Of a DNA stretch of 64,000 nt, positions 2,772-17,663 are shown piece after piece. The notes beneath the pieces are model-generated. The model worked only from the letters and a program-made list of their open reading frames with translations, was not told the origin of the DNA and did not search any database. Source of the DNA: Ilumatobacteraceae bacterium. Lineage in GTDB: Bacteria; Actinomycetota; Acidimicrobiia; Acidimicrobiales; Ilumatobacteraceae. Position numbers and translations under genes: made by a program. Position 1 is the first letter of the stretch; every line of letters begins with the position of its first letter. The stretch lies in NCBI GenBank assembly GCA_024643255.1, contig JAHENF010000004.1:49748-113747 (forward strand), written 5' to 3'.

Positions 2772-5700
2772 GTGGAGTTCGCGATCCTGGGTCCGTTGGA
2801 AGTGCGCGACGAGGGACAACCCGTTGCCGTCGGTGGCCGAAAGCACCAGATGCTGTTGGCCATCCTGCTCCTGAACGCGAATCGCGTCGTGTCGACCGAT
2901 CGGCTCCTCGAGGATCTCTGGGGGGATGACGCGGCGGACAAGGAGAACGCCCTCTGGGTCCACATCTCGCGTCTGCGAACTGCGCTCGGTGATCACGACC
3001 TGCTCGTGACCCATGATCACGGCTACTCGCTGGTCGTCGACGCGGACGACGTCGACGCCCATCGCTTCGAGTCCGAGGTGGCAGCAGCCCGAGCGCTGAT
3101 GAGAGACGACCCCGCTGCGGCCGCCCGGCGGCTGGGCGACGCGCTCCAGATGTGGAGAGGGCCTCCGCTCGCGGACTTCACCTACGAGGACTTCGCCCAG
3201 ATCGAGATCATCCGCTTGAACGAGCTGCGCTCACTCGCCCAGGAAGATCGCATCGAGGCCGACCTGCAACTCGGTCGGGCCGGGGAACTGATCAGCGAAC
3301 TCGAGGCCATGCATGCCGCGCAGCCGACACGCGAGCGCGTCGTCGCCCTGCTCATGCTCGCCCTCTACCGGTCGGGGCGTCAGGCCGACGCACTCCAGGT
3401 GTCCAGAGAATTTCGCAGCGCGCTGGTCGACGAGGTCGGCCTCGAGCCCTCTGCAGATCTGCAACGACTCGAGGAGCAGATCCTCCTGCACGACACGCGC
3501 CTCGACCTGCATCGCCACCCGAGCGCGACAGCCGATGAGCGATCGGCGCCCGCCGTCAATCCGTTCAAGGGCCTCAGGGCATTCCGCGAGGAGGACAGCG
3601 GCGACTTCTTCGGACGCGACCGGATCGTCGCGGAGGTCATACGCCGCCTCGACGACGGTGCAGGTCTGATCGGAATCATCGGACCGAGCGGATCCGGCAA
3701 GTCCAGCATCGTCAGAGCCGGTTTGATCCCTGCACTGCGAGCCGGCGCGATCGAGGGTTCCGACCGCTGGTCGATCGCCCACATGGTGCCTGGGGCGAGG
3801 CCGTTCGCCGAACTCGAAGCGGCACTGCTGCGATCGTCGCTCGACGCACCCGACAGCCTGTCGGAACAACTCGCGGATCGCGAGACCGGCGTGCTCCGAG
3901 CGGCGTTGCGGATCCTGCCCGATGAGTCGGCCCGTCTGCTCCTCGTGATCGACCAGTTCGAGGAGTTGTTCACCCTCGTGTCGAACGAGGGCGACCGGTC
4001 ACGGTTCCTCGACGGGCTGGTCAACGCGATCGACGACTCGTGCGGCCAGGTCAAGGTCGTCGTCACGCTGCGCGCCGACTTCTACGGACGTCCGTTGGCG
4101 TACCCGGAGTTCGGTTCCCGACTGGGCGACGGCATCGTCAACGTCGTCCCCCTGACCTCGAACGAGCTCGAGATGGCTGCCATGCAACCGGCTGCGGGAG
4201 TGGGCGTGACGCTCGAGCCGGCGCTCGTCGTGGCGCTGCTGACCGATGTGATCGGCCGCCCCGGCGCGCTCCCACTGTTCCAGTACGCGCTCACCGAGCT
4301 GTTCGATCGACGCGAGAACGACACGCTGAGCCTGGCCGAGTATCACGCGATGGGCGCGGTGAGCGGGGCGCTCACCCGCCGCGCCGAGGAGCTCTTCGCA
4401 CGGTTGGACGACGGGCAGCGCAGCGCCGCCCGGCAGCTCTTCCTCCGGCTGGTCACCATCGCCGAGAACGACGAGTGGACTCGACGTCGCGTCCCGGCCT
4501 CCGAGATCCTGTCGCTCGACGTCGACGTGCTCGCCATCCAGACCGTGATCGACGCCTTCTCGACACACCGACTCCTCATCCTCGATCGTGATGCGGTCAC
4601 CGGGTCGCCGACCGTCGAGGTCGCCCACGAGTTGTTGCTCACCAACTGGCCGCGTCTGCGAATCTGGATCGAAGACGCCCGCGACGACATCAGACGACAC
4701 GTGCTGCTGTCGGTGGCGATCGACGAATGGCACGAGGCCGACGAGAACCCCGACTACCTGTTGAGTGGCGCCCGTCTCGAGGCCTACACGCACTGGGCCG
4801 CGACGACCACCATGCCGCTCATGTACGGAGCGCAGCAGTTCCTCGATGCATCGATCGAGCAGTGCGAGCGCGAACTCGCGGAGGAGCGCGAACGGTCGCT
4901 GATCGGCGCCCGGGCGCAGCGGTCGGCGAGACGCCGGCTCTGGGGGATCACCGCGGTGTTGATCGCCGTCGTGGTCGGCGCCGGCCTCGTGGCGGTCGGG
5001 GCATTCGACAGCTCGCCAGGCCCGACCGTTGCGTTCTTCGGGTATCGAGGCGATGGAGGATGGAACGACAACATCGCGGCGGGCCTCGACCGGGCCGCCC
5101 AGGATCACAACATGGTGTTGGTCGATGCCCCGGCGATCGTCGACCCCTCGACAGACTTCCGGGAACTCGCGGAGCAGGGTCCCGACATCATCATCAGCGA
5201 TGCCGAGCCCATGGCGTCGGCACCCGACGTCTACACGGACTTCCCCGACATCGAGTTCGGCATCGTCGACGGGTTCATCGACGCACCCAACGTCGCTGGG
5301 GTGGTGTTCGACAACGAGCAGGGTGCATTCCTCGCCGGCGCGGCGGCAGCGATGACGACCGAGACCGGAATCGTGGGATTCGTCGGTGGCGACGCCTGGT
5401 CCGTTGCGGGCTTCCAGGCCGGCTTCGAGGCGGGCGCCCACTGGGTGAACCCCGACGTCGAGGTGTTGGCGACCTACATCGTGCAGGAGTTCGTTCGGCA
5501 GACCGGTGGCCTCCCGATCTTCGCGTGGGGTCGCCCCGACCTCGGCGCCGACCGGGCGTCGGCACTCTACGAACGTGGTGCCGATGTCGTCTTCCACGCC
5601 GCCGGTGCATCCGGCCTGGGGATATTTCCAGCGTCGGTCGAATCGTCGGCGACCCAGTTCCGCAAGCTGTGGGCGATCGGCGTCGACAACGACCAGTGGT

Positions 5701-6185
5701 TCCAGGTCGACGAGATCGAGCGCTCACACGTCCTCACCTCGCTGATCAAGCGCGGTGATGTCGCCGCCGAACGGCTGGTCGAGCTGCTGCTGCGCGACGA
5801 GCCCGTCTCCGGTGCCGTCGACGTCGGGCTCGCCGACGGCGTGTTCCGCCTGTCCACCCAGGGCGGTTGGTTGACCGACGACATGATCGCAACGCTCGAG
5901 CGTGCGGAGACGGCGATCGTCGACGGCCGACTCGTCGTGCCTGCATGGCCGACGGGTGAGGTGCTCGACCTCGATCCGATCCAGAACGCCTTCGAGGAGG
6001 CGCTCGCGGTGCTCACGCCACGTCAGACCGACGAGTATCTCCACACGTGGCTCGGGGACCATCACCCGGTGGATGTCGCGGTGTCGTGCTCGGCTTCGAC
6101 CGCCTGGCCGGCTGACGAGGCCGCATGCCTCGACGTGATCACCAGCCACCTCCAGGAGTACATCGACCAGAACCGAACCCTGTGA
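2772..6185 (+). CDS. membrane-anchored SARP/BTAD regulator fused to STAND-type P-loop NTPase and extracytoplasmic BMP/PnrA-like domain
   Basis: GTG start. OmpR-type wHTH plus BTAD (LQMWRGPPLADF). NPFKGLRAFREEDSGDFFGRD lead-in, Walker A GPSGSGKS (3681-3704), Walker B LLLVIDQFEELF (3936-3971). One TM helix (4938-5006). BMP-like GIVGFVGG..GFEAG..NPDV..GVDNDQ. Confidence 0.8.
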   Translation: MEFAILGPLEVRDEGQPVAVGGRKHQMLLAILLLNANRVVSTDRLLEDLWGDDAADKENALWVHISRLRTALGDHDLLVTHDHGYSLVVDADDVDAHRFESEVAAARALMRDDPAAAARRLGDALQMWRGPPLADFTYEDFAQIEIIRLNELRSLAQEDRIEADLQLGRAGELISELEAMHAAQPTRERVVALLMLALYRSGRQADALQVSREFRSALVDEVGLEPSADLQRLEEQILLHDTRLDLHRHPSATADERSAPAVNPFKGLRAFREEDSGDFFGRDRIVAEVIRRLDDGAGLIGIIGPSGSGKSSIVRAGLIPALRAGAIEGSDRWSIAHMVPGARPFAELEAALLRSSLDAPDSLSEQLADRETGVLRAALRILPDESARLLLVIDQFEELFTLVSNEGDRSRFLDGLVNAIDDSCGQVKVVVTLRADFYGRPLAYPEFGSRLGDGIVNVVPLTSNELEMAAMQPAAGVGVTLEPALVVALLTDVIGRPGALPLFQYALTELFDRRENDTLSLAEYHAMGAVSGALTRRAEELFARLDDGQRSAARQLFLRLVTIAENDEWTRRRVPASEILSLDVDVLAIQTVIDAFSTHRLLILDRDAVTGSPTVEVAHELLLTNWPRLRIWIEDARDDIRRHVLLSVAIDEWHEADENPDYLLSGARLEAYTHWAATTTMPLMYGAQQFLDASIEQCERELAEERERSLIGARAQRSARRRLWGITAVLIAVVVGAGLVAVGAFDSSPGPTVAFFGYRGDGGWNDNIAAGLDRAAQDHNMVLVDAPAIVDPSTDFRELAEQGPDIIISDAEPMASAPDVYTDFPDIEFGIVDGFIDAPNVAGVVFDNEQGAFLAGAAAAMTTETGIVGFVGGDAWSVAGFQAGFEAGAHWVNPDVEVLATYIVQEFVRQTGGLPIFAWGRPDLGADRASALYERGADVVFHAAGASGLGIFPASVESSATQFRKLWAIGVDNDQWFQVDEIERSHVLTSLIKRGDVAAERLVELLLRDEPVSGAVDVGLADGVFRLSTQGGWLTDDMIATLERAETAIVDGRLVVPAWPTGEVLDLDPIQNAFEEALAVLTPRQTDEYLHTWLGDHHPVDVAVSCSASTAWPADEAACLDVITSHLQEYIDQNRTL

Positions 6186-8156: not shown

Positions 8157-8213
8157 GTGTTCACACAGGTTGTCCACAGACCCTCCGTCCACAGGATCGG
8201 AGAGTTGTCCACA
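8157..8213 (+). promoter_or_regulatory. cluster of four same-orientation DnaA boxes upstream of dnaB
   Basis: TTGTCCACA perfect at 8170-8178 and 8205-8213. GTGTTCACA (8157-8165) and CCGTCCACA (8185-8193) have two mismatches each. Confidence 0.7.
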
Positions 8214-8286
8214 GGCGTTCAACAGGCAAGACCCAGGGTTGTTCCTCTTCCATCGCACAGGAAACACCTGGGAGAGTGGGGTCCCC

Positions 8287-9672
8287 ATGTCGATCGATCG
8301 AGAAATCGGAACCGGCCACACAGACCGCGGCGGTCACGCCACGGGGCGCAGTGGGCGCGTTCCTCCCCACAACCTGCAGGCCGAGGAGTCCGTCCTCGGC
8401 GCGCTGCTGTTGTCGCGTGACGCGATCGGCGTCGTCGGCGAAGCCGGCCTCAACGTTCGCGACTTCTACAGCCCGGCGCACCAGCACATCTTCGACTCGG
8501 TCCGGTCGTTGTATTCGTCGTCAGGGCCTGTCGACGTCGTCACGGTTGCCGACGAATTGCGCCGCCACGGACTGCTCGACGAGATCGGTGGGATCGAGCG
8601 ACTGAACGATCTGCAGAACGCCACCCCGTCGGTGTCGGGCGCCGAACACTATGCGCGCATCGTGATGGACACGGCGCTGCTGCGGCGCCTGATCCACACC
8701 GCCGGCGAGATCACCGATCTGGCGTTCAGTGAGCCCGACGACGTCACCAAGGCCGTCGATCTGGCCGAGTCGAAGATGTTCGAGGTCGCCGAGGACCGCG
8801 TCGTCGATTCGACGCGTCAGATCCAGGAACTGCTCAACGAGACGATGGACCAGTTGGAGGAGAACTACGAACGCGGCGACACCATCACCGGCGCAGCGAC
8901 CGGGTACGACGACCTCGACGAACTCCTGTCCGGCCTCCAACCCAGCACGCTGAACATCGTCGGTGCACGCCCCGCCATGGGTAAGACCGCCTTCGGTCTG
9001 GGCATGGCGACACACATCGCGAAGCATTCGGGCCGACCGGTGCTCGTGTTCTCACTCGAAATGGGCCACTCGGAGCTGACGCAGCGCATCTTGGCGTCGG
9101 AGGCCAAGGTCGACTCCACCAAGCTGCGTACCGGAAAGCTGAGCGAGGCCGACTGGTCGAAGATCGGGCTCGCGGTCGGCCGTCTCGAAGTGCCGTTGTT
9201 CCTCGACGACAACCCGCAGGTGACCGTGATGGAGATCCGCGCGAAGGCCCGGCGCATCAAGGCGCAACACGGCGGGTTGGCGTTGATCATGATCGACTAC
9301 CTGCAGCTGATGAGCGGTAGTGGCCGATCCGAGAACCGTCAGCTCGAGGTCAGCGAGATCAGCCGAAACCTCAAGGTGCTCGCGCGCGAACTCGAGGTGC
9401 CGATCGTGGCGCTCAGCCAGTTGAGCCGAAACCTGGAGGCCCGTTCCGACAAACGTCCGATGCTCGCCGACCTGCGTGAATCGGGCTCGCTCGAACAGGA
9501 CGCCGACGTCGTGATGTTCCTGTATCGCGACGAGGTGTACAACCCCGAATCACCCGACAAGGGCTCGGCCGAGGTGATCGTGTCGAAGCACCGCTCGGGC
9601 CCGATCGGTACCAAGCGGCTCGTCTTCCTCGGCCAGTACACGAGATTCGACAACGCCGCCCGCTCGATGTGA
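8287..9672 (+). CDS. dnaB: replicative DNA helicase DnaB
   Basis: PHNLQAEESVLGALLLS, Walker A GARPAMGKTAF, Walker B LIMIDYLQLM, SQLSRNLE. Normal length, so no intein. ATG 8287 preferred to TTG 8170, which lies inside the DnaA-box cluster. Confidence 0.9.
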   Translation: MSIDREIGTGHTDRGGHATGRSGRVPPHNLQAEESVLGALLLSRDAIGVVGEAGLNVRDFYSPAHQHIFDSVRSLYSSSGPVDVVTVADELRRHGLLDEIGGIERLNDLQNATPSVSGAEHYARIVMDTALLRRLIHTAGEITDLAFSEPDDVTKAVDLAESKMFEVAEDRVVDSTRQIQELLNETMDQLEENYERGDTITGAATGYDDLDELLSGLQPSTLNIVGARPAMGKTAFGLGMATHIAKHSGRPVLVFSLEMGHSELTQRILASEAKVDSTKLRTGKLSEADWSKIGLAVGRLEVPLFLDDNPQVTVMEIRAKARRIKAQHGGLALIMIDYLQLMSGSGRSENRQLEVSEISRNLKVLARELEVPIVALSQLSRNLEARSDKRPMLADLRESGSLEQDADVVMFLYRDEVYNPESPDKGSAEVIVSKHRSGPIGTKRLVFLGQYTRFDNAARSM

Positions 9673-10820: not shown

Positions 10821-11837
10821 TCACCAGTGGCGCAGGTCGATCGGCCAGCGATCGTGTACGCGGTCGCCGTCGACCATCCAGAATTGCTCGTGGCGGGCAA
10901 CGGTGGGGTCGACGTGCGACGGCCAGATGCGCACGCGATCGCCGACCTTCCAGTCGCTGAGCTCACGGGGCAACAACGTGATGTGTTCGTCGGAACAGAA
11001 GAAGACGTCACCCTCGTCCCATGACGGGTTGCCATGATCCATGCCGAACGCCTTGAGGCCGGCATCGGCGATGATCCAACCCTTCGAGCTGATCGACACG
11101 ACGGTGGCAAGCACCGACAGTGCCTTCTCGAACGGCGACTCGAGTTCGTCGTACTGGGTGTCCATCAGCATGTAGGAGCCGGCTTGGATCTCGGTGCACC
11201 ACGTGTTGAGATCGAACGTGCCGGTCCCACCGCCCGACACGACGTCGCCGCCGACCATCTCGTGCGCCTGCAGGAGGACCGCCATCGCCGCCTCCACCTT
11301 CTCGCGCTTGGTGTCACGGTCGTGGATCATCATGAGGTGACCCTCGTACCCCATCACCCCGCGAACGTCGATCCCCGCAGCCCGAGCGCGCTCCGCGAGG
11401 CGCCCGGCATCGGTGACGTCGCACCCGCATCGCGGCAGGCCGACATCGACGTCGACGAGCACCGAACGGACGCCTCCACGAACGGCGGCGTCGAGTGTCT
11501 CGTCGGAGTCGATCGCCACGGTGATGTTCGCCCGATCGGCGAGCGCCCCGAGGCGCGCGGCGTCGAGTGTCTCGTTGGCGAGGAGGAGGTCGTCGGTGAG
11601 TCCAGCGGCGACGAGACCCTCGATCTCGCGCGGGGTCGCCGCACAGAAGCTGTGGTGTCCGTCGGCGGCGAGGCGCTTGGCCATCTCGGTCGACTTGAAG
11701 GCCTTGACGTGCGGTCGTAGCCGGGCACCTGGGAGCAGTGCGTCCATCGCGGCGAGGTTCCGGTCGAATGCCGCGACGTCGACGAGCAGCGCGGGCGTCG
11801 TCAGGTCGTGGGTCGTCGAGGGTGTCTGCGAGGTCAC
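10821..11837 (-). CDS. PLP-dependent alanine-racemase-fold enzyme (D-threonine aldolase/D-serine dehydratase-like)
   Basis: TPALLVD..RLRPHVKAFKS (PLP-lysine context), about 338 aa, C-terminal WPSHVDPT region. Confidence 0.65.
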   Translation of the reverse strand: MTSQTPSTTHDLTTPALLVDVAAFDRNLAAMDALLPGARLRPHVKAFKSTEMAKRLAADGHHSFCAATPREIEGLVAAGLTDDLLLANETLDAARLGALADRANITVAIDSDETLDAAVRGGVRSVLVDVDVGLPRCGCDVTDAGRLAERARAAGIDVRGVMGYEGHLMMIHDRDTKREKVEAAMAVLLQAHEMVGGDVVSGGGTGTFDLNTWCTEIQAGSYMLMDTQYDELESPFEKALSVLATVVSISSKGWIIADAGLKAFGMDHGNPSWDEGDVFFCSDEHITLLPRELSDWKVGDRVRIWPSHVDPTVARHEQFWMVDGDRVHDRWPIDLRHW

Positions 11838-11878: not shown

Positions 11879-13123
11879 GTGCTCGATCTCGACTTCGTTC
11901 GCTCCAACTTCCCCGCCTTCTCGCGTCCCATCAACGACGGGCAATCGTTCTTCGAGAACGCGGGCGGCTCGTTTGCATGCCGGCAGACGATCGACGCGAT
12001 GACCGGCTACTACACCGATCTGAAGGTGCAGCCCTACAGCGAGTTCGAGTCGTCGGCGCGTGCCGGCGCCTCGATGGATCGGTCGCGGGTCCGTTGGGCC
12101 GAGGCGCTCGGGGTGGAGCCCCGCGAGGTCGTGTTCGGCCCGTCGACGTCGGCGAACACCTATGTACTCGCACATGCCTTCGCCGAGATCTTGGAGCCTG
12201 GCAACGACGTGATCGTCACCAACCAGGACCACGAGGCCAACACCGGCGCCATTCGGCGTGCGGCCGACCGGGTCGGATGCACGATCCGTGAGTGGCGGAC
12301 CGATCCCGAGACCGGCCTGCTCGACATCTCGGTGTTCGAGTCGATGTTGAGCGAGCGAACCGGGCTCGTGACGGTTCCGCACGCCTCGAACATCGTCGGC
12401 AAGGAGAACGACGTGACGAGCATCACGGCGCTCGCTCACCGGGTCGGTGCGCGAGTGATCGTCGACGGGGTCTCGTTCGCGCCGCACACTCTGCCCGACG
12501 TCGCCGCGCTCGGCGCCGACGTCTACCTGTTCAGTCTCTACAAGACGTACTCGGTCCATCAGGGTCTGATGGTCGTGCGCGCCGGCCTGATGGCGGAACT
12601 GCCGAATCAGAGCCACTACTTCAACGACAGCGTGGCCGACAAGCGGTTGAACCCTGCTGGTCCCGATCACGCACAGGTCGCATCGGCAGGGGCCGTGCTC
12701 GACTACGTCGAGGCCCTGCACCGTCATCATGGTGGCGCGGAAGGCGACGGTCTGCGAGCGGCGACGAGTGCGGTGTCGGCCCTGTGGCGCGAACACGAGG
12801 ACTCGTTGACACCGATGCTGCTCGAGGCGCTCGCCGGGCGTGACGACGTTCGTCTGATCGGGCCGCGGATGCTGGACGCGACGACAGGTCACCGGTGTCC
12901 GACGGTTGCGTTCAGCCCGCTCGCGAACGAGCCGGAGGACGTGGCGCACGGGCTCGTCGAGCGTGGCGTGCAGACCAGCTCGGGTCACTACTACGCGGCG
13001 CGGGTGCTCGACGGCGTCGGTATCGACCCCGATCGCGGGGTCGTGCGGCTCTCGTTCGTGCACTACACGTCGCGCGCCGATGTCGAACGGGCGGTCGCCG
13101 CCCTCGACGACGTCCTCGGCTGA
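11879..13123 (+). CDS. class V aminotransferase / cysteine desulfurase-like PLP enzyme
   Basis: GTG 11879, 41 nt from the divergent neighbour. NQDHEAN, HASNIVG, lysine context FSLYKTYSVHQG. The listed start 11738 would overlap the divergent gene. Confidence 0.7.
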   Translation: MLDLDFVRSNFPAFSRPINDGQSFFENAGGSFACRQTIDAMTGYYTDLKVQPYSEFESSARAGASMDRSRVRWAEALGVEPREVVFGPSTSANTYVLAHAFAEILEPGNDVIVTNQDHEANTGAIRRAADRVGCTIREWRTDPETGLLDISVFESMLSERTGLVTVPHASNIVGKENDVTSITALAHRVGARVIVDGVSFAPHTLPDVAALGADVYLFSLYKTYSVHQGLMVVRAGLMAELPNQSHYFNDSVADKRLNPAGPDHAQVASAGAVLDYVEALHRHHGGAEGDGLRAATSAVSALWREHEDSLTPMLLEALAGRDDVRLIGPRMLDATTGHRCPTVAFSPLANEPEDVAHGLVERGVQTSSGHYYAARVLDGVGIDPDRGVVRLSFVHYTSRADVERAVAALDDVLG

Positions 13124-13212
13124 TCATCCGCTCTGGACGGGTGGCCGTCGGGGGCCAGTCGAACCAGGGTTTGGGACCAAAGACCCTGCTGCGTCGATCT
13201 GATCGCGCAGAT

Positions 13213-13231
13213 ATTGGAACAACGTTCCAAT
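13213..13231. promoter_or_regulatory. 8-3-8 perfect palindrome ATTGGAAC-AAC-GTTCCAAT, candidate operator
   Basis: Read directly. AT-rich relative to its surroundings. Ends 18 nt upstream of ATG 13250. Confidence 0.5.
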
Positions 13232-13249: not shown

Positions 13250-14119
13250 ATGACGCAGTTCCTCGCGCAGTACTCGATCCAACGGTGGATGGAGATGTGT
13301 CCTCAGGGGTATCTCGAGGACACCGTGTACGGGCATGAGCCGAACGAGCACGAACCTGCGGTGATCCTCGACGACGACGACGAACGCGAAGCGGCGATTC
13401 GCACGACCGTCGGCCTCGTGGTGGGGGAGCGTTGTGCGCTCGCCGCGTCGTCGGGCCTGATCAACGCCGCTCCGGACTACCCGAGCAAGCGATTCCTGGC
13501 GACCCAGACGCTCGACGAGGCACGCCACGTCGAGGTCTTCACGCAACGGCTGTTCGACCTGGGCGTGACCGCCGACAACCTGGAGTCGACCATCGACCGC
13601 TATGCCAACCCGAATCTCGTGAAGTTCGCCGAGGTCCTCCTGGAGAAGGTGGCGGCCGGCGACTTCCTCGCCGGCGTGGTCGGACAGAACATCGTGCTGG
13701 AGGGTCTGGCGTTCAGCGTCTTCGAGATGCTCGAAGCGGGCAACCGCGAGTTCAACCCGAAGTTCGCCCACACGTTGTCGGGCACGATCGCCGACGAACG
13801 GCGCCACGTCGGTTTCGGCGAGAATCGCATCGGCTCGCTGATCGCCCAGCATCCGGAGAAGAAGGCCGAGATCGAGCGCATGCAACAGGAGATGACCTAT
13901 TACATGCTCGCCGTGTTCGCCGATTCCTTCCGCGGCGACGACAACAAGCCGAAGTCGGCTCCGGAGCCGACCGCCAGCGCCGAGTGGCACGGCACCAACC
14001 TCTCGACGGCCAGTCCCGAGGAGATGGAGGCCGTCCTCGCGAACACGGTGCTCGGCGAGTTCAAGACACGTCTCGCCCGCGTCGGCATCGAGTACCAGAC
14101 ACCACGCGTCCCGGCGTGA
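13250..14119 (+). CDS. ferritin-like diiron-carboxylate protein, paralog 1
   Basis: Full E/ExxH/E/ExxH set: GERCAL, DEARH (13514-13528), VLEGLA, DERRH (13793-13807). ATG 13250 preferred to TTG 13214, which sits inside the palindrome. Confidence 0.7.
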   Translation: MTQFLAQYSIQRWMEMCPQGYLEDTVYGHEPNEHEPAVILDDDDEREAAIRTTVGLVVGERCALAASSGLINAAPDYPSKRFLATQTLDEARHVEVFTQRLFDLGVTADNLESTIDRYANPNLVKFAEVLLEKVAAGDFLAGVVGQNIVLEGLAFSVFEMLEAGNREFNPKFAHTLSGTIADERRHVGFGENRIGSLIAQHPEKKAEIERMQQEMTYYMLAVFADSFRGDDNKPKSAPEPTASAEWHGTNLSTASPEEMEAVLANTVLGEFKTRLARVGIEYQTPRVPA

Positions 14120-14895
14120 GCGTCGTCGACGAGTTCGATCCCCACGCGCTCGCCGAGCAGGATTTCCTCGACGAAGTCCATTCGTTCCAATTCTGGTTCG
14201 ACTCCGTCGAGGGGTATCTCTCCGATCGTCCGTACGGCCGACTGGAGACCACGGTCGACGAGCCGATCGACGATGCCCGGCGCGAACGGCTGATCACCAC
14301 GCTGTGCAACTACTCCGTCGGCGAGACGGCGGCACTCGAAGGTGCCGCCGGCCTCGTGCAGTTGGCCCCTGACCGGAACTCGAAGATCTTCATGGCGACC
14401 CAGGTCGCCGACGAGGCGCGCCACCTCGAGGTCTTCCTGCACCGTCTGCGCGAACTCGGTGTCGCCGATCCGGAAGCGGAAATCGAGCGTCGGGCCCAAC
14501 CGGCCCTCGTCGATTTCAAAGGCGCTCTGCTCGATCTCGTCGCCGAGGGCGATTGGCAGGCCGCGGTCTTCGCGCAGAACGTCGTGCTCGAGACGATGGA
14601 GTACACCGTGTTCCGTCTCCACGCCGCCAACGCCGATCCGGTGACGCGCGACGTGCTGGCAGGAGTGATCTCCGACGAGCGCCGCCACGCCGGCTTCGGC
14701 GAGAACGATCTGGGCCGCAGCCTCGCCGCCGATCCGTCGGGGCGGGCGCGACTCCGCGAGATCCGGACCGGTCTCGATGCGATGGTCGTCGGGGTGTTCG
14801 AGGCGGCCCTCGCCGACATCGGCGCGCCCGCCGGAGAGCGTTCGCAGCTCGCGCACGAGTATCTCGACACGATCGAGCGGTTGGGACTCACCTGA
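14116..14895 (+). CDS. ferritin-like diiron-carboxylate protein, paralog 2
   Basis: GTG 14116 overlaps the upstream TGA (GTGA). GETAAL, DEARH (14410-14424), VLETME, SDERRH (14671-14688). The listed 487-aa ORF is an out-of-context 5' extension. Confidence 0.7.
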   Translation: MSVVDEFDPHALAEQDFLDEVHSFQFWFDSVEGYLSDRPYGRLETTVDEPIDDARRERLITTLCNYSVGETAALEGAAGLVQLAPDRNSKIFMATQVADEARHLEVFLHRLRELGVADPEAEIERRAQPALVDFKGALLDLVAEGDWQAAVFAQNVVLETMEYTVFRLHAANADPVTRDVLAGVISDERRHAGFGENDLGRSLAADPSGRARLREIRTGLDAMVVGVFEAALADIGAPAGERSQLAHEYLDTIERLGLT

Positions 14896-15194
14896 TGACC
14901 GACATCGACGTCTCCGCCCCTGGCATCGGGGCGGATCCCTCGCGCCGGCGATACGAACTCGAGGAGACCGGATTCAAGGAGGTGCCGAAGAAGTGGCGGA
15001 AGTTCTACCGGCACTGGGGTGGTCCGCTGGACACCCTGGCACCGAACGAGGTGATCTGCCCGGTCTGCAAGGTGGTGATCCGCGCCACGAGGGAACTCCG
15101 GCCGGGCGACAAGGTGTACTGCATGCCGTGCATGTCGCGCATGGTGGTCGTCGTCGCCGAGAGTGGGCGCCTGGAGGCCGAGGTGATCTTCTGA
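14895..15194 (+). CDS. small Cys4 zinc-ribbon/rubredoxin-like protein
   Basis: ATG shares one nt with the upstream TGA (TGATG). CPVC (Cys55, Cys58), 17 residues, then CMPC (Cys76, Cys79). 99 aa. Confidence 0.65.
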   Translation: MTDIDVSAPGIGADPSRRRYELEETGFKEVPKKWRKFYRHWGGPLDTLAPNEVICPVCKVVIRATRELRPGDKVYCMPCMSRMVVVVAESGRLEAEVIF

Positions 15195-15239
15195 CCCGGC
15201 ACTGAGTTGCATGGAGACGATCACGCCGGAGGGGAGCCG

Positions 15240-17663
15240 GTGGGGCATCATGTGGACGTGAGCACGACGGAGGCACCGAGCAGGGTGCTGCGCGAGAACG
15301 ACCGCCGTGACTGGCAGCGTCATCCGGTCGACACCGCACGCCTCGTCGTCCGTCTCTGCCTGCTGGGGTTCGTGCTCCTCGTCACGGCGGTGTTCCCCGC
15401 GGCCTTGACGAACGCGTCGTCGGACGTCGTTCGCTTCTTCGCGAGGATGCCCGAGCCGCTCCGCTACGCCCTCGTCGGGTTGGCGCAGTTGTCGATTCTG
15501 GTCGTCCCCGTCGTCATCGTGGGGTGGTTGCTCGTCCGGCGCGCCCGCGTGGCGACGCTGCTGATCGTCGGCGCCGGTCTCGTCGGTGGGATCACGATGG
15601 TGCTGCTCACCGACTGGCTCGAGCGGGCCGCTCCACCGACCACGATCACCGATCTCGCCTCGGGTTCGTTCGTCAGGTCCGGCTTCCCGTCGGCGGCCTA
15701 TCTCTGCGCGCTGGTCGCCGGAGCAACGACTGCGTCGCCGATGATGACAGCGCGCTGGCGGGCGATCGCCTGGTCGGCGGTCTGGGTGACCGTGCTCGTT
15801 CGTCTGATCACGGCGACGCAGGCCCCGGTGAATCTCTTCGTGACGATCGCACTCGGCAGCGCGATCGGATCAGCGGCACTCGTGATCTTCGGATCACCGC
15901 AGCGTCGCCCTGGTGCGAATTCGCTGCGGGCCGGGCTGGCCGAGGGTGGATTCGTCATCGACGAGTTGGGTGACGAGACGTTCGAACGGGGTGTGCGGAA
16001 CTATCACGGACGCTCCGGGTCGGAGGCGGTCGAGGTGGTGTACCTCGACCGTGACGATCGAGACGTCGAGTTGTTCGCCCGCGTCGTTCGCTCGATCAGG
16101 GTGCGCGACGTCGATGAGCAGCGCATCTCGGTGCGGCCGCGGATCCGCGCGGCGCAGCTCACGCAGTCGACGATGATGGCCGAGCGAGCGGGGGCGAGGG
16201 TGCAGGACGTGTTGGCGGTCGCCCCGACCGGTTCCGACAGCGCGATCATCGTGTTGACCGCGGCGTCGAGTGCCGGGTGGACGCTGCGTGAGCGGACCGA
16301 CGACGACGTGAGCGATGCCGCGCTCGACGACGCGTGGCGTCAGGTGGGTCTGCTGCACCATGCCTGTATGTCCCATCGCTCGCTGACGCGCGACAACGTG
16401 GTGCTCGACGGTGATCAGGCGACGCTGCTGGGAATGGATACCGCCCTGCTCGCTTCGAGTGCCGAGTCGCGTGCCGTCGACCGGGCGGAGCTGCTGGTCT
16501 CGACGGCGCTGACCGTCGGGGTCGACCGAGCCCTCGACGCGGCTGTGCGATCGGTGCCGGCGGACGATCTCGAATCCACGCTCCCGTTCGTGCAACTCCC
16601 CGCACTTCCGGCGCACACCCGCGAGGAGGCGAAGAAGCCCAAGCATCTGGTCGACGATCTCCGCAACGGGCTCGCAGGACGGCTCGGCGTGGAACAGGTG
16701 GAGCTCGCCGAGCTCGAACGCATCAGCTTCGGCAGGATCGTCACCTGGGTCGGCTTCGCCGTGCTCGCCTTCTTCCTGTTGACGCTGGTGACCAACTGGT
16801 CGGCGATCAGCGATGCGATGGCGGGAATCGACTGGGTCTGGGTCGTCCCCGCCGTGATCGCCACGCTCGTGGGAACCGTCGGTGGGGCGATGTCGTTGGC
16901 GGGCTCGGTCGTGCGACCGATTCCGCTCGGTGACGCGACCATCGTCATGTTCGGCCAGTCGTTCCTCAACCGGTTCACCCCGATGAACGCCGGGGGCATG
17001 GCGATGCGCATCCGGTACCTGCAGAAGGGCGGGACGGATGTCGCGGTGTCGACCGCCGCTGTGGGTTTGACGTCGCTGGCGAGCGGCGTCGTGCAGGTCG
17101 CGTTCATCGCCTTCTTCTTCCTGTGGAGCAGTACGGATCCGACCGGTGACGCGACCTCCGGAGGCGGTGGGGGTCCCGACCTGACCCTGGTGTTCGTGTT
17201 CGTCGGGGCCATCGTGGTGGCGGCGATCGTGCTGGCGCTGACGCCGAAGTTCCGCCGCTGGCTCGTCACGCTCGTGAAGTCGACGATCGAGAAGGTCAGG
17301 CACGACTTCGGCGAGCTGCTGCGGATGCCCACGAAACTGAGCCTGCTGTTCGGCGGTCAGGTCATCGCCAAGATGTCGACCATCCTCGCGTTCGTCTGGG
17401 CATGTCGCGCCTTCGGCATCGACTTGCCGTTTGCCGAACTCGGAGCGCTGTACCTCGCCGCCAACACGGTGGCATCGACGGTGCCGACCCCGGGTGGGGT
17501 CGGCGCGATCGAGGCGGCGCTCGTGTTCGTGCTGACGCGCGCCGGCGTACCCGACGCCGAAGCCTGGGCCGCGACGCTGTTGTTCCGGTTGATCAACTAC
17601 TGGTTGCCGACGATTCCCGGCTACGTCGCGCTGCGCTACAGCGAGCGTCACGAACTCGTGTGA
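15240..17663 (+). CDS. polytopic membrane protein: N-terminal TM region + kinase-like (probably inactive) domain + MprF-flippase/UPF0104-like TM domain
   Basis: GTG 15240 lies 6 nt after GGAGG (15229-15233); TTG 15207 is also possible. WRQVGLLHHACMSHRSLTRDNVVLDGD resembles a kinase catalytic loop with Ser in place of Asp. C-terminal FLNRFTPMNAGGMAMRIRYLQKGG. Confidence 0.7.
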   Translation: MGHHVDVSTTEAPSRVLRENDRRDWQRHPVDTARLVVRLCLLGFVLLVTAVFPAALTNASSDVVRFFARMPEPLRYALVGLAQLSILVVPVVIVGWLLVRRARVATLLIVGAGLVGGITMVLLTDWLERAAPPTTITDLASGSFVRSGFPSAAYLCALVAGATTASPMMTARWRAIAWSAVWVTVLVRLITATQAPVNLFVTIALGSAIGSAALVIFGSPQRRPGANSLRAGLAEGGFVIDELGDETFERGVRNYHGRSGSEAVEVVYLDRDDRDVELFARVVRSIRVRDVDEQRISVRPRIRAAQLTQSTMMAERAGARVQDVLAVAPTGSDSAIIVLTAASSAGWTLRERTDDDVSDAALDDAWRQVGLLHHACMSHRSLTRDNVVLDGDQATLLGMDTALLASSAESRAVDRAELLVSTALTVGVDRALDAAVRSVPADDLESTLPFVQLPALPAHTREEAKKPKHLVDDLRNGLAGRLGVEQVELAELERISFGRIVTWVGFAVLAFFLLTLVTNWSAISDAMAGIDWVWVVPAVIATLVGTVGGAMSLAGSVVRPIPLGDATIVMFGQSFLNRFTPMNAGGMAMRIRYLQKGGTDVAVSTAAVGLTSLASGVVQVAFIAFFFLWSSTDPTGDATSGGGGGPDLTLVFVFVGAIVVAAIVLALTPKFRRWLVTLVKSTIEKVRHDFGELLRMPTKLSLLFGGQVIAKMSTILAFVWACRAFGIDLPFAELGALYLAANTVASTVPTPGGVGAIEAALVFVLTRAGVPDAEAWAATLLFRLINYWLPTIPGYVALRYSERHELV

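What the first reader, a model, noticed from the sequence alone, without database searches (positions are those of the whole stretch)
13250..15194. Pair of ferritin-like diiron paralogs plus a Cys4 mini-protein joined by start/stop overlaps: candidate uncharacterised oxidase module
Three ORFs are joined by start/stop overlaps: GTGA at 14116-14119 and TGATG at 14893-14897. This implies stoichiometric co-production. Both 260-290-aa paralogs keep a complete E / ExxH / E / ExxH ligand set. Paralog 1 has GERCAL, DEARH, VLEGLA and DERRH. Paralog 2 has GETAAL, DEARH, VLETME and DERRH. So both could hold a dimetal centre. That differs from PaaA/PaaC-type or monooxygenase alpha/beta pairs, where one partner is degenerate. 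The third product (99 aa) has CPVC-x17-CMPC knuckles. These could form a LysW-like zinc ribbon or a rubredoxin-type Fe(Cys)4 site that could serve as scaffold or electron donor. No reductase or ferredoxin gene is nearby. I cannot place the paralogs in a named diiron family from memory. The operon sits behind a perfect palindrome, and a large lipid-flippase-like membrane protein follows 12-45 nt downstream.
Basis: partly seen in the sequence, partly recalled or inferred. Interest (0 to 1): 0.7.

Follow-up and report, generated by a model that had tools for sequence, protein, structure and literature searches.

The report
Stress-regulated two-subunit diiron enzyme with zinc-ribbon partner
Three tightly coupled genes encode two sister iron-binding (VlmB-like) proteins and a tiny four-cysteine protein that always travel together across several bacterial phyla; they probably form an uncharacterised oxygen-using enzyme, and in this lineage sit behind a site resembling the hypoxia (DosR) regulator's binding box.

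Summary
P1 (13250-14119), P2 (14116-14895) and P3 (14895-15194) overlap by GTGA and TGATG. P1 and P2 are 43% identical, and both keep E/ExxH/E/ExxH. P3 has CPVC-x17-CMPC.

The trio is a real, conserved module, present with the same order and tight coupling in every complete orthologous locus examined (Acidimicrobiia, Myxococcota and Proteobacteria MAGs). Both ligand sets and all four cysteines are invariant.

No curated family claims the proteins. The closest characterised relative of P1/P2 is the azoxy synthase VlmB (8WVR/6D9F; about 25% identity, TM 0.73), followed by ADO, R2lox and R2c. P3 belongs to no Pfam family, and its model most resembles the LysW zinc ribbon.

Two points are new. First, 11 of 13 Acidimicrobiia loci, including this one (13173-13186), carry a DosR/DevR-type box, GGGAC-N4-GTCCC, 67-107 nt upstream. 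One locus encodes a DevR orthologue beside further boxes. Second, the non-actinobacterial loci instead have sigma-54-type promoters. Some also have NtrC-type regulators, universal stress proteins or WS/DGAT genes nearby.

The substrate is unknown. My best reading is a stress- or hypoxia-induced heteromeric diiron oxidase with a zinc-ribbon subunit, a new variant of a known kind.

The parts
13173..13186 (.). DosR/DevR-type box GGGACCAAAGACCC (core GGGAC-N4-GTCCC with 1 mismatch); putative activator site
   Evidence: A box with at most 1 mismatch lies 67-107 nt upstream of P1 in 11 of 13 Acidimicrobiia loci. Random 90-nt windows of the same loci match as well only 0.1-1.5% of the time. It is absent from 10 non-Acidimicrobiia loci. 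The mycobacterial DosR consensus TTSGGGACTWWAGTCCCSAA is printed in PMC2275270. L087 encodes a DevR orthologue, with boxes in its own intergenic region and before a neighbouring gene.
13210..13215 (+). Possible -10 hexamer GATATT (inferred only)
   Evidence: It is conserved in the syntenic loci L002, L088 and L090, 22-23 nt after the box. This would place the box centre near -42 relative to a transcription start around 13221-13223. This is inference: the consensus promoter scan found nothing.
13213..13231 (.).
   Evidence: It is unique in the window, with 0.03 matches expected by chance. L002, L088 and L090 carry two tandem copies, so the window appears to have lost one. It is not conserved outside this lineage. 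Its RNA fold is no better than shuffled sequence, z -0.3.
13250..14119 (+). P1, 289 aa: VlmB-like ferritin-fold protein with a full dimetal ligand set (E60, E90/H93, E151, E183/H186) and a C-terminal extension that P2 lacks
   Evidence: The AlphaFold model has pLDDT 82.8. The best PDB folds are 8WVR and 6D9F (VlmB), TM 0.73, E 6e-9.
14116..14895 (+). P2, 259 aa, GTG start overlapping the P1 stop: paralogue of P1 with a full ligand set
   Evidence: Pfam hits are Phenol_Hydrox 37.4 bits, MiaE_2 32.2 and Ald_deCOase 30.1.
14895..15194 (+). P3, 99 aa: Cys4 zinc-ribbon protein (C55, C58, C76, C79) with a conserved basic/aromatic N-terminal segment
   Evidence: There are 1234 homologues, all about 90-130 aa among the best 120. 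In 50 diverse sequences, 31 positions including the four Cys are invariant. It matches no Pfam or NCBIfam family. The model has pLDDT 82. The best folds are LysW 3WWN_B, 3WWL and 5EIO_C, prob 0.89-0.97, E 0.1-0.3.
15207..17663 (+). P4, 818 aa membrane protein (N-terminal TM region, Bud32-like kinase region, C-terminal LPG_synthase_TM flippase-like domain); an optional neighbour, not part of the conserved core
   Evidence: It is adjacent only in this window, L002, L088 and L090 (downstream) and in L001 (divergent, sharing the intergenic region that holds the box).

Best explanation
The three genes most likely encode the subunits of one soluble metalloenzyme.

P1 and P2 are paralogous VlmB-type proteins (ferritin-like, R2/ADO fold). 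Each keeps a complete carboxylate-bridged dimetal site. They probably pair as a heterodimer, in the way R2-type proteins form homodimers. P3 is a Cys4 zinc-ribbon protein of a family of its own. It is co-translated with the pair and most probably binds the pair as a small structural subunit. A Zn site is likeliest; an Fe(Cys)4 electron relay is not excluded.

The complex would activate O2 at its dimetal centre(s) to oxidise a small hydrophobic or amine-bearing metabolite. Like VlmB-type oxidases, it would work without a dedicated reductase.

Expression is probably conditional. In Acidimicrobiia the operon carries a DosR/DevR-type box about 42 bp upstream of the likely transcription start. It is therefore probably switched on by a hypoxia/NO/redox two-component system. 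In Myxococcota and Proteobacteria the same trio sits behind sigma-54-type promoters, in some loci next to NtrC-type regulators and universal stress proteins.

Shown: the gene structure, paralogy, invariance of ligands and cysteines, conservation of the trio, fold relationships, and the positional conservation of the box and of the sigma-54 motifs.

Inferred: complex formation, metal identity, O2 chemistry, the inducing signal and the substrate class.
For: - The start/stop overlaps are present in the window, and comparably tight junctions occur in other loci.
- The trio is present in the same order in all complete orthologous loci, with no other constant neighbour.
- Both ligand sets are invariant in the orthologues.
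- P3 has 31 invariant positions including the four Cys, which points to a constrained interaction surface.
- P1 hit 2023 proteins (a count that includes both paralogues) and P3 hit 1234, roughly what equal occurrence would give.
- The closest structures are VlmB azoxy synthase 8WVR/6D9F, then R2c, ADO and R2lox.
- VlmB is described as a diiron enzyme that carries out hydrazine-to-azoxy oxidation (PMC11705231; diferric form, PMC12522199).
- No reductase gene is conserved next to the trio.
- The DosR-type box is statistically well supported, and its consensus was verified in print.
- L087 encodes a DevR orthologue (3C3W, 247 bits, against 147 for the next family) with a PAS-HisKA_3 kinase. Boxes lie in its own intergenic region, before a multicopper oxidase and before the trio.
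- Sigma-54-type -24/-12 motifs lie upstream of P1 in 6 of 10 non-Acidimicrobiia loci and in none of 13 Acidimicrobiia loci.
- NtrC-type regulators and USPs lie upstream in L008, L009 and L012. WS/DGAT genes lie beside the trio in L009, L006 and L004.
Against: - No direct evidence shows that the three proteins form a complex; no multimer model could be run.
- Apparent fusions that would have supported an interaction turned out to be frameshift artefacts.
- The P3-LysW fold match is weak (E 0.1-0.3, 45 aligned columns), and the metal is unknown.
- The DosR link rests on motif similarity and one neighbouring regulator. No DevR orthologue lies in this 64-kb window.
- The box is missing in L085 and has 2 mismatches in L087.
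- An O2-consuming enzyme is not an obvious member of a hypoxia regulon.
- Neighbouring genes differ between loci and give only diffuse substrate hints (lipid-related and PLP enzymes).
Confidence: 0.55

Rival explanations
1. A split rubrerythrin- or flavorubredoxin-like scavenger. The diiron pair would reduce O2, H2O2 or NO to harmless products. P3 would be a rubredoxin-type Fe(Cys)4 entry point for electrons from the general cellular pool. No organic substrate would be involved.
For: - The Cys4 protein is made stoichiometrically with diiron proteins, which is the domain logic of rubrerythrin.
- The regulatory context points to stress or hypoxia: a DosR-type box and USPs with NtrC-type regulators nearby.
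- No dedicated reductase and no constant substrate-pathway neighbour were found.
- 16 of 50 P3 homologues give sub-threshold Rubredoxin hits, best E 0.032.
Against: - P1 and P2 are 260-290-aa R2/ADO/VlmB-fold proteins. Their best sequence and fold matches are substrate-oxidising enzymes.
- No Rubrerythrin family hit was found.
- P3 lacks the glycine of the rubredoxin CxxCG knuckles, and its best fold match is a Zn ribbon (LysW), not rubredoxin.
Confidence: 0.17
2. A lipid-modifying enzyme that acts on a fatty aldehyde, an acyl chain or a lipid head group. The chemistry would be ADO-like deformylation, desaturation or hydroxylation. Its role would lie in storage-lipid or membrane remodelling during dormancy. 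In this lineage it would work with the flippase-like P4.
For: - Ald_deCOase is among the best family hits for P2 (30 bits, just above the Pfam cut-off).
- The VlmB homologue 6D9F was deposited as having aldehyde-deformylating activity.
- WS/DGAT genes lie next to the trio in three loci of different lineages.
- P4, with its LPG_synthase_TM domain, is co-oriented or divergent in five loci.
- Other lipid-related neighbours are an acyl-CoA dehydrogenase (L089), KshA-like and enoyl-CoA hydratase genes (L086), and a thioesterase (L001).
- The distant single-gene homologue in Pseudoalteromonas sits among fatty-acid desaturases, a fatty-acid hydroxylase, an MMPL transporter and a Fer2/FAD reductase.
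Against: - None of these neighbours is constant; each occurs in a minority of contexts.
- The ADO equivalog model scores 29 bits against a cut-off of 223.
- No acyl-ACP reductase partner is present.
- WS/DGAT genes are often multi-copy in actinobacteria (from memory; not tested here), so proximity could be chance.
Confidence: 0.2
3. A true VlmB-type N-oxidase in a natural-product pathway (azoxy, hydrazine or N-N chemistry) acting on an amino-acid-derived amine.
For: - The closest characterised relative in sequence and fold is VlmB.
- PLP-dependent amino-acid enzymes lie directly upstream in three independent contexts: the window-type loci (Aminotran_5 and a D-Ser-dehydratase-like gene), L005 (Aminotran_5) and L017 (PALP).
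- A distant relative is fused to an acyl-CoA-dehydrogenase-like domain (P0361). From memory, VlmH is of that fold.
Against: - No biosynthetic cluster surrounds the trio: no N-hydroxylase, tRNA-dependent transferase or dedicated aminoacyl-tRNA synthetase was seen in the flanks (VlmO-type membrane genes were not specifically searched for), and the flanks vary.
- Identity to VlmB is only about 25%.
- The trio is widespread in Acidimicrobiia and highly conserved (70-93% identity among hundreds of sequences). That pattern fits housekeeping or stress physiology rather than secondary metabolism.
- VlmB is a single gene without a paralogous partner or a P3.
Confidence: 0.06
4. P3 is not a subunit. It is either the substrate or a carrier: a LysW-like amino-group carrier, or a protein whose residues are modified by the diiron pair.
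For: The best fold hits of P3 are LysW carrier proteins. P3 is always encoded after P2.
Against: - P3 lacks LysW's acidic C-terminal tail and ends in a hydrophobic Y or F.
- No LysX/Z/Y/J/K-type genes are nearby.
- P3 is conserved along its whole folded length, as an enzyme subunit would be.
Confidence: 0.04
5. A minimal bacterial multicomponent monooxygenase or PaaABC-type epoxidase core (alpha, beta and a small subunit) that borrows a reductase encoded elsewhere.
For: - P2 passes the Pfam Phenol_Hydrox threshold (37.4 against 24.4 bits).
- JGI labels some orthologues 'phenylacetyl-CoA epoxidase catalytic subunit'.
- From memory, the subunit sizes (289, 259 and 99 aa) resemble PaaA, PaaC and PaaB.
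Against: - Both paralogues keep their ligands, whereas (from memory) the beta/PaaC partner in those systems is degenerate.
- No effector, Rieske or reductase genes are linked.
- PaaA_PaaC hits are absent or weak.
- The toluene monooxygenase beta subunit appears only at E about 5e-4 with the family profile.
Confidence: 0.05

Closest known systems
VlmB, the diiron azoxy synthase of valanimycin biosynthesis (PDB 8WVR; 6D9F is the same Kitasatospora setae protein)
   Same: It is the best sequence and fold match: P1 E 1.4e-14, P2 7e-8, TM 0.73 over about 300 columns. The match includes the N-terminal W...GxL extension and the C-terminal helix. The E/ExxH/E/ExxH ligands are the same, and neither system has a dedicated reductase.
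   Different: Identity is only about 25%. VlmB is a single gene inside a biosynthetic cluster. Here there are two obligatorily linked paralogues plus a Cys4 protein, no cluster, and stress-type regulation.
Cyanobacterial aldehyde-deformylating oxygenase (ADO) and R2-like ligand-binding oxidase (R2lox)
   Same: They share the ferritin-like eight-helix fold and the 4-Glu/2-His site. The residue four positions after the first His is Phe in both paralogues; from memory, this is the radical-tyrosine position of E. coli R2.
   Different: Equivalog models fail by a wide margin: ADO 29 against 223 bits, R2lox 32 against 194 bits. From memory, ADO is monomeric and needs ferredoxin, and R2lox is a homodimer. 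Neither has a zinc-ribbon partner.
Alpha-beta-gamma hydroxylases of bacterial multicomponent monooxygenases, and PaaA/PaaC/PaaB
   Same: Each is a three-subunit design with two paralogous ferritin-fold subunits and one small subunit. P2 passes the Pfam Phenol_Hydrox threshold.
   Different: In those systems only one paralogue keeps the metal ligands (from memory), and reductase and effector genes are linked. Here both sites are intact and no such genes are linked.
LysW amino-group carrier protein (zinc ribbon)
   Same: It is the best structural match for P3 residues about 53-97, with two CxxC knuckles on a small beta-sheet.
   Different: The match is weak (E 0.1-0.3). P3 has a conserved 50-residue N-terminal part, lacks the acidic C-terminal tail (from memory, the attachment site in LysW), and has no lysine or arginine biosynthesis genes nearby.
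Mycobacterial DosR/DevR dormancy regulon
   Same: The box GGGAC-N4-GTCCC matches the core of the published consensus. A DevR orthologue with boxes in its own intergenic region lies next to the trio in L087. USP and WS/DGAT (tgs-like) genes, which from memory are typical members of the mycobacterial regulon, are neighbours in some loci.
   Different: As far as I know, no ferritin-like trio belongs to the M. tuberculosis regulon. The kinase in L087 has PAS domains, not the GAF domains that DosS/DosT carry (from memory). Binding and induction are untested.

Membership tests
Ferritin-like superfamily, carboxylate-bridged dimetal proteins | Four-helix core carrying E ... ExxH ... E ... ExxH | tested here: met
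   The motifs are present in P1 and P2 and invariant in the orthologues. The helical model matches R2/ADO/VlmB folds.
VlmB-type azoxy synthase | Full-length sequence and fold similarity to VlmB | tested here: met
   E 1.4e-14 for P1 and 7e-8 for P2. TM 0.73, E 6e-9. Identity is only about 25%.
VlmB-type azoxy synthase | Encoded in a hydrazine/azoxy biosynthetic cluster (VlmO-type membrane enzyme, VlmA transferase, N-hydroxylase) | tested here: not met
   The flanks of more than 15 loci vary, and none showed an N-hydroxylase, tRNA-dependent transferase or dedicated aminoacyl-tRNA synthetase in the Pfam annotation. VlmO has no profile in the libraries used, so its absence was judged only from the lack of any constant membrane-protein neighbour.
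Aldehyde-deformylating oxygenase (ADO) | Passes the equivalog model TIGR04059; acyl-ACP reductase partner | tested here: not met
   29 bits against a cut-off of 222.65. No AAR-like neighbour is present. P2 just passes the broad Pfam model (30.1 against 28 bits).
R2-like ligand-binding oxidase | Passes the NCBIfam R2lox equivalogs | tested here: not met
   P1 scores 32 bits against a cut-off of 194.
Bacterial multicomponent monooxygenase hydroxylase / PaaABCDE | One ligand-bearing alpha and one degenerate beta subunit; linked reductase and effector (or PaaB/D/E) | tested here: not met
   Both paralogues keep all ligands. No such genes are linked. Only P2 passes the Pfam Phenol_Hydrox threshold.
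LysW amino-group carrier protein | Zinc-ribbon globular domain | tested here: inconclusive
   LysW gives the best fold hits but with E 0.1-0.3. Zn_ribbon_LysW is hit by 1 of 50 homologues at E 0.033.
LysW amino-group carrier protein | Acidic C-terminal tail ending in Glu (the attachment site, from memory); LysX/Z/Y/J/K neighbours | tested here: not met
   P3 and its orthologues end in ...EAEV(I/V)(F/Y). No such neighbours are present.
Rubredoxin | Passes Pfam PF00301; CxxCG and CPxCG knuckles | tested here: not met
   13.5 bits against a cut-off of 23. The knuckles are CPVCK and CMPCM, without the glycine. Metal content cannot be tested here.
DosR/DevR regulon | DosR-type palindromic box at promoter distance | tested here: met
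   The window has one at 13173-13186. It is found in 11 of 13 Acidimicrobiia loci with per-locus chance of 0.1-1.5%.
DosR/DevR regulon | Binding by, and induction through, a DevR orthologue under hypoxia, NO or CO | not testable with these tools
   The only evidence is indirect: a DevR orthologue with boxes in its own intergenic region lies next to the trio in L087.

The most novel reading that the evidence does not exclude
The trio is a previously unrecognised class of heteromeric diiron enzyme. Both paralogous subunits would be catalytically competent, and a dedicated Cys4 mini-protein would act as a built-in redox or assembly partner. The enzyme would be deployed as a portable stress or hypoxia module, rewired from DosR control in Acidimicrobiia to sigma-54/NtrC control in Myxococcota and Proteobacteria. 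Its chemistry would have no characterised counterpart. Examples are high-affinity O2 or NO consumption, or oxidation of an amine or lipid head group during dormancy, possibly linked to the MprF-flippase-like neighbour.
Probability: 0.2. Interest if true: 0.75.

Novelty: new variant of a known kind. Interest (0 to 1): 0.55.

Why it matters
Ferritin-fold diiron enzymes carry out unusual oxidations, such as alkane formation, azoxy and N-N chemistry, and radical generation. New branches of the family have repeatedly yielded new chemistry.

This branch has at least about a thousand members. It is one of the best-conserved proteins of unknown function in Acidimicrobiia, a widespread but poorly studied class of aquatic and soil actinobacteria. 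Its architecture has not been described: two intact dimetal sites plus a private zinc-ribbon protein.

The regulatory evidence gives a concrete experimental handle, namely hypoxia, NO or redox stress. It also suggests that DosR-type dormancy regulons extend to this class with different cargo.

If both sites are active, the complex would be a useful contrast to the alpha/beta pairs in which one site has decayed.

Tried and rejected
(1) Natural fusions as evidence of interaction. The 365-aa 'P2-P3' gene in L090 is a one-base frameshift that reads P2 into the P3 frame. The 549-aa P0277 is a frameshift-riddled read-through of P1 and P2. L009 12977-13306 is a deletion remnant that joins the N-terminus of a P2-like gene to the first knuckle of a P3-like gene. 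None is a genuine fusion.

(2) P4 (LPG_synthase_TM) as an obligatory partner. It is adjacent in only 5 of more than 20 loci.

It is restricted to the Ilumatobacteraceae-type loci, although GAAC..GTTC-type repeats occur in some others. As an RNA hairpin it is no more stable than shuffled sequence.

(4) A known RNA element in the leader or the operon. There was no Rfam match at E of 1 or below.

(5) The DosR-like box as an RNA stem. All variation between sites is one-sided and not compensatory (sequences), so a protein-binding site is more likely.

(6) The non-Acidimicrobiia loci as mis-binned Acidimicrobiia contigs. This is unlikely, because they lack the box and carry sigma-54-type promoters and NtrC-type activators instead. 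Sigma-54 is not known in Actinobacteria (from memory).

(7) Literature searches for VlmB, 6D9F/8WVR, DosR plus ferritin-like, and diiron plus zinc ribbon. None found a description of this trio.

(8) A DevR orthologue or its kinase in this window. There was no tblastn hit at E below 1e-5.

(9) The consensus sigma-70 promoter and terminator scan. It found nothing useful.


Full report
**Observation.** The three ORFs are exactly as described. P1 runs from ATG 13250 to TGA 14119 (289 aa). P2 runs from GTG 14116 to TGA 14895 (259 aa). P3 runs from ATG 14895 to TGA 15194 (99 aa). The overlaps are GTGA at 14116-14119 and TGATG at 14893-14897. P1 and P2 are clear paralogues: 43% identity over 217 residues, E 1e-48. 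The quoted motifs are present. P1 has GERCAL, DEARH, VLEGLA and DERRH. P2 has GETAAL, DEARH, VLETME and DERRH. P3 has CPVC-x17-CMPC. The upstream 'palindrome' is an inverted repeat with 8-nt arms and a 3-nt spacer (13213-13231). It is unique in the window, with 0.03 matches expected by chance. The downstream 818-aa ORF has a C-terminal LPG_synthase_TM domain and a central Bud32-like kinase region.

**Family placement.** No curated model claims these proteins.
- All NCBIfam hits are far below their cut-offs: R2lox 32 against 194 bits, ADO 29 against 223 bits.
- In Pfam, P1 passes nothing. P2 just passes the broad models Phenol_Hydrox (37 bits), MiaE_2 (32) and Ald_deCOase (30).
- Against PDB sequences, the best hit for both paralogues is 6D9F/8WVR (E 1.4e-14 for P1, 7e-8 for P2), followed by ADO and R2lox.
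- An AlphaFold model of P1 (pLDDT 82.8) matches 8WVR best, at TM 0.73 and E 6e-9. That entry is 'azoxy synthase VlmB and its substrate'. 6D9F is the same Kitasatospora protein, deposited as having aldehyde-deformylating activity. Chlamydial R2c, ADO and R2lox come next.
- A profile that includes distant family members aligns with VlmB over its full length at 215 bits. That profile contains VlmB-like sequences, so part of the score follows from how it was built.

P1 and P2 therefore belong to a VlmB-like branch of the ferritin-like superfamily, at about 25% identity to the one characterised member. VlmB is described as a diiron enzyme that oxidises a hydrazine through azo to azoxy (PMC11705231; diferric form, PMC12522199).

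**P3.** P3 has no Pfam, NCBIfam or PDB sequence match. Its model (pLDDT 82) consists of a short helix and a small beta-sheet carrying the two knuckles. The best fold hits are LysW zinc ribbons (prob 0.89-0.97, E 0.1-0.3, 29% identity over 45 columns). P3 lacks LysW's acidic C-terminal tail and has an extra, strongly conserved basic/aromatic N-terminal part (GFxEVPKKWRKFYRxW). Across 50 homologues of 66-90% identity, 31 positions including all four Cys are invariant. This pattern fits an obligate interaction partner better than a free electron carrier or a substrate. That reading is an inference.

**Conservation of the module.** P1 has 2023 database relatives, a count that includes P2-type sequences. 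P3 has 1234. The named ones come from Acidimicrobiia. I examined three sets of loci:
- 80 loci from a one-genome-per-species collection;
- L001, fetched by exact protein look-up;
- nine further loci fetched the same way.

Every complete locus with a P1 orthologue (50-93% identity) has P1-P2-P3 in that order. These come from Acidimicrobiia and from MAGs labelled Myxococcota, Deltaproteobacteria, Proteobacteria, Enhydrobacter and Limnocylindria. Where genes were called, the junctions overlap by 1-4 nt or are separated by at most a few bases. Both ligand sets are invariant in both paralogues. A Binatota MAG (L017) has only a P2-type gene followed by P3, behind a PLP enzyme. This suggests that P3 pairs primarily with the P2 type.

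All-against-all clustering of flanking ORFs found no other gene shared by more than three loci. More distant single-gene relatives (25-33% identity) lack P3. One, in Pseudoalteromonas, sits with a Fer2/FAD reductase, fatty-acid desaturases, a fatty-acid hydroxylase and an MMPL transporter. Another is fused to an acyl-CoA-dehydrogenase-like domain.

**Regulation (new).**
- A box with at most one mismatch to GGGAC-N4-GTCCC lies 67-107 nt before the P1 start in 11 of 13 Acidimicrobiia loci. These represent at least eight different genomic contexts.
- In each locus only 0.1-1.5% of random 90-nt windows match as well.
- None of 10 non-Acidimicrobiia loci has it.
- The core equals that of the mycobacterial DosR/DevR consensus TTSGGGACTWWAGTCCCSAA, whose wording I verified in PMC2275270.
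- Variation between sites is one-sided, as expected for protein half-sites rather than an RNA stem.

In L087 a response regulator lies 3 kb upstream of the trio. Its best PDB match by far is M. tuberculosis DevR (3C3W, 247 bits; the next family scores 147). It is paired with a PAS-HisKA_3 kinase. Boxes lie in the regulator-kinase intergenic region, in perfect form 74 nt before a multicopper oxidase, and in a 2-mismatch form before the trio.

In the window-type loci a conserved GATATT follows the box by 22-23 nt (13210-13215 here). If this is the -10 element, the box is centred near -42. The TTGGAAC inverted repeat, present as two tandem copies in L002, L088 and L090 and as one here, then lies at the transcription start, as a repressor operator would. 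This promoter reading is inference only.

The non-actinobacterial loci instead show sigma-54-type -24/-12 motifs. L009 has TGGCACGGCGCTTGC. Six of ten such loci score at least 8 of 10, against none of 13 Acidimicrobiia loci. L008, L009 and L012 have an NtrC-type activator and universal stress protein genes just upstream. A WS/DGAT gene follows P3 directly in L009, and others lie within 1.5-4 kb in L006 and L004. From memory, USPs and a WS/DGAT (tgs1) are hallmark members of the mycobacterial DosR regulon.

The trio thus behaves as a portable module placed under stress-type control in each host phylum.

**Mechanism.** The best-supported reading is a heteromeric soluble dimetal oxidase. P1 and P2 would pair like R2-type dimers, each with an intact site. 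P3 would be a small Zn-ribbon subunit made in matching amounts through translational coupling. The chemistry would be O2-dependent oxidation of a small metabolite, with the substrate or general cellular donors supplying the electrons. This fits the absence of any linked reductase and the VlmB precedent.

Substrate hints are diffuse:
- Lipid-related neighbours: P4, WS/DGAT, an acyl-CoA dehydrogenase, a KshA-like Rieske gene, an enoyl-CoA hydratase and a thioesterase.
- PLP-dependent amino-acid enzymes directly upstream in three contexts: the window type, L005 and L017.

The main rival is a rubrerythrin-like O2, H2O2 or NO scavenger with P3 as an Fe(Cys)4 relay. It fits the regulation but not the fold relationships. 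True azoxy biosynthesis, a LysW-type carrier role for P3 and a BMM/Paa-type monooxygenase all fail defining features (see the membership table).

**What is not shown.** Complex formation, metal content, activity, the inducing signal and regulator binding are all untested. Apparent fusions that would have supported an interaction are sequencing frameshifts or a deletion remnant. No Rfam element is present.

**Verdict.** The module is an uncharacterised branch of a known enzyme superfamily with an undescribed subunit composition. It now has a specific regulatory hypothesis, and I found no literature describing it. I rate it a new variant of a known kind, of moderate to good interest (0.55).

Noticed in passing
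window 15207-17663: The 818-aa P4 combines an N-terminal multi-TM region, a Bud32/RIO-like kinase region (about residues 265-430, sub-threshold hits) and a C-terminal LPG_synthase_TM (MprF flippase-like) domain. It lies downstream of the trio in this window, L002, L088 and L090. In L001 it is divergent and shares the intergenic region that holds the DosR-type box. VlmB works alongside VlmA, which is MprF-like (PMC2922099), so MprF-related and VlmB-related proteins co-occur in both systems. This may be coincidence.
   Followed up: partly
window 13213-13231; L002, L088, L090 upstream of P1: Relatives carry two tandem TGGAAC-N3-GTTCCA inverted repeats about 21 nt apart. The window has one, as if recombination between the copies had deleted the other. 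The cognate regulator is unknown.
   Followed up: partly
L087 2505-5780: A DevR/DosR orthologue and a PAS-HisKA_3 kinase are encoded here. DosR-type boxes lie in their intergenic region (3197) and before a multicopper oxidase gene (4339, a perfect GGGACCTTGGTCCC). This suggests a DosR-type regulon in Acidimicrobiia with cargo unlike that of mycobacteria.
   Followed up: partly
window 10821-11837 (-) and 11921-13123 (+): A divergent pair of PLP enzymes lies directly upstream of the trio. One is D-Ser-dehydratase/D-Thr-aldolase-like (Ala_racemase_N plus D-ser_dehydrat). The other is a cysteine-desulfurase-like class V aminotransferase (TIGR01976-like, below cut-off). The pair is syntenic in L002, L088 and L090. 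Other PLP enzymes lie upstream of the trio in L005 and L017. In L085, sufBCD, an FeS_assembly_P gene and a NuoF-like gene lie upstream.
   Followed up: partly
window 2772-6185: A 1137-aa protein combines a Trans_reg_C DNA-binding domain, BTAD, an nSTAND1 NTPase and a C-terminal Bmp/PnrA-like substrate-binding domain. This is an unusual one-protein signalling architecture.
   Followed up: no
L090 997-3456, compared with window 8170-9672: The DnaB helicase of the related locus L090 carries an intein with a LAGLIDADG endonuclease (819 aa). The window's DnaB ORF (500 aa) hit only DnaB-family domains.
   Followed up: no
L009 12977-13306: This is a remnant ORF 3 kb downstream of the intact trio. It joins the N-terminus of a P2-like gene (up to ...LVAAAPN) directly to the first knuckle of a P3-like gene (EVLCPVCQVVIR) and then runs out of frame. 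It appears to be a deletion relic of a second copy.
   Followed up: yes
L018 2658-15661 (Pseudoalteromonas sp. MTN2-4); L019 has a similar run of ORF sizes but was not annotated: A distant single-gene relative (33% identity to P1) lies in a co-oriented cluster. The cluster encodes a 908-aa class III aminotransferase fusion, a fatty-acid hydroxylase, an amino-acid permease, a Fer2/FAD reductase, an alpha/beta hydrolase, two fatty-acid desaturases and an MMPL transporter. It is probably a pathway for a modified lipid or amino lipid.
   Followed up: partly
P0361 (773 aa, from the representative search): This protein is a natural fusion of an acyl-CoA-dehydrogenase-like N-terminal part with a VlmB-like C-terminal domain (27% identity to P1). 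From memory, the arrangement is reminiscent of VlmH-type N-hydroxylase plus VlmB chemistry.
   Followed up: no
L001 16402-17196: A heliorhodopsin gene lies 5 kb from the trio in this 4.45-Mb Acidimicrobiia genome. A second, shorter LPG_synthase_TM protein lies at 4624-5724.
   Followed up: no
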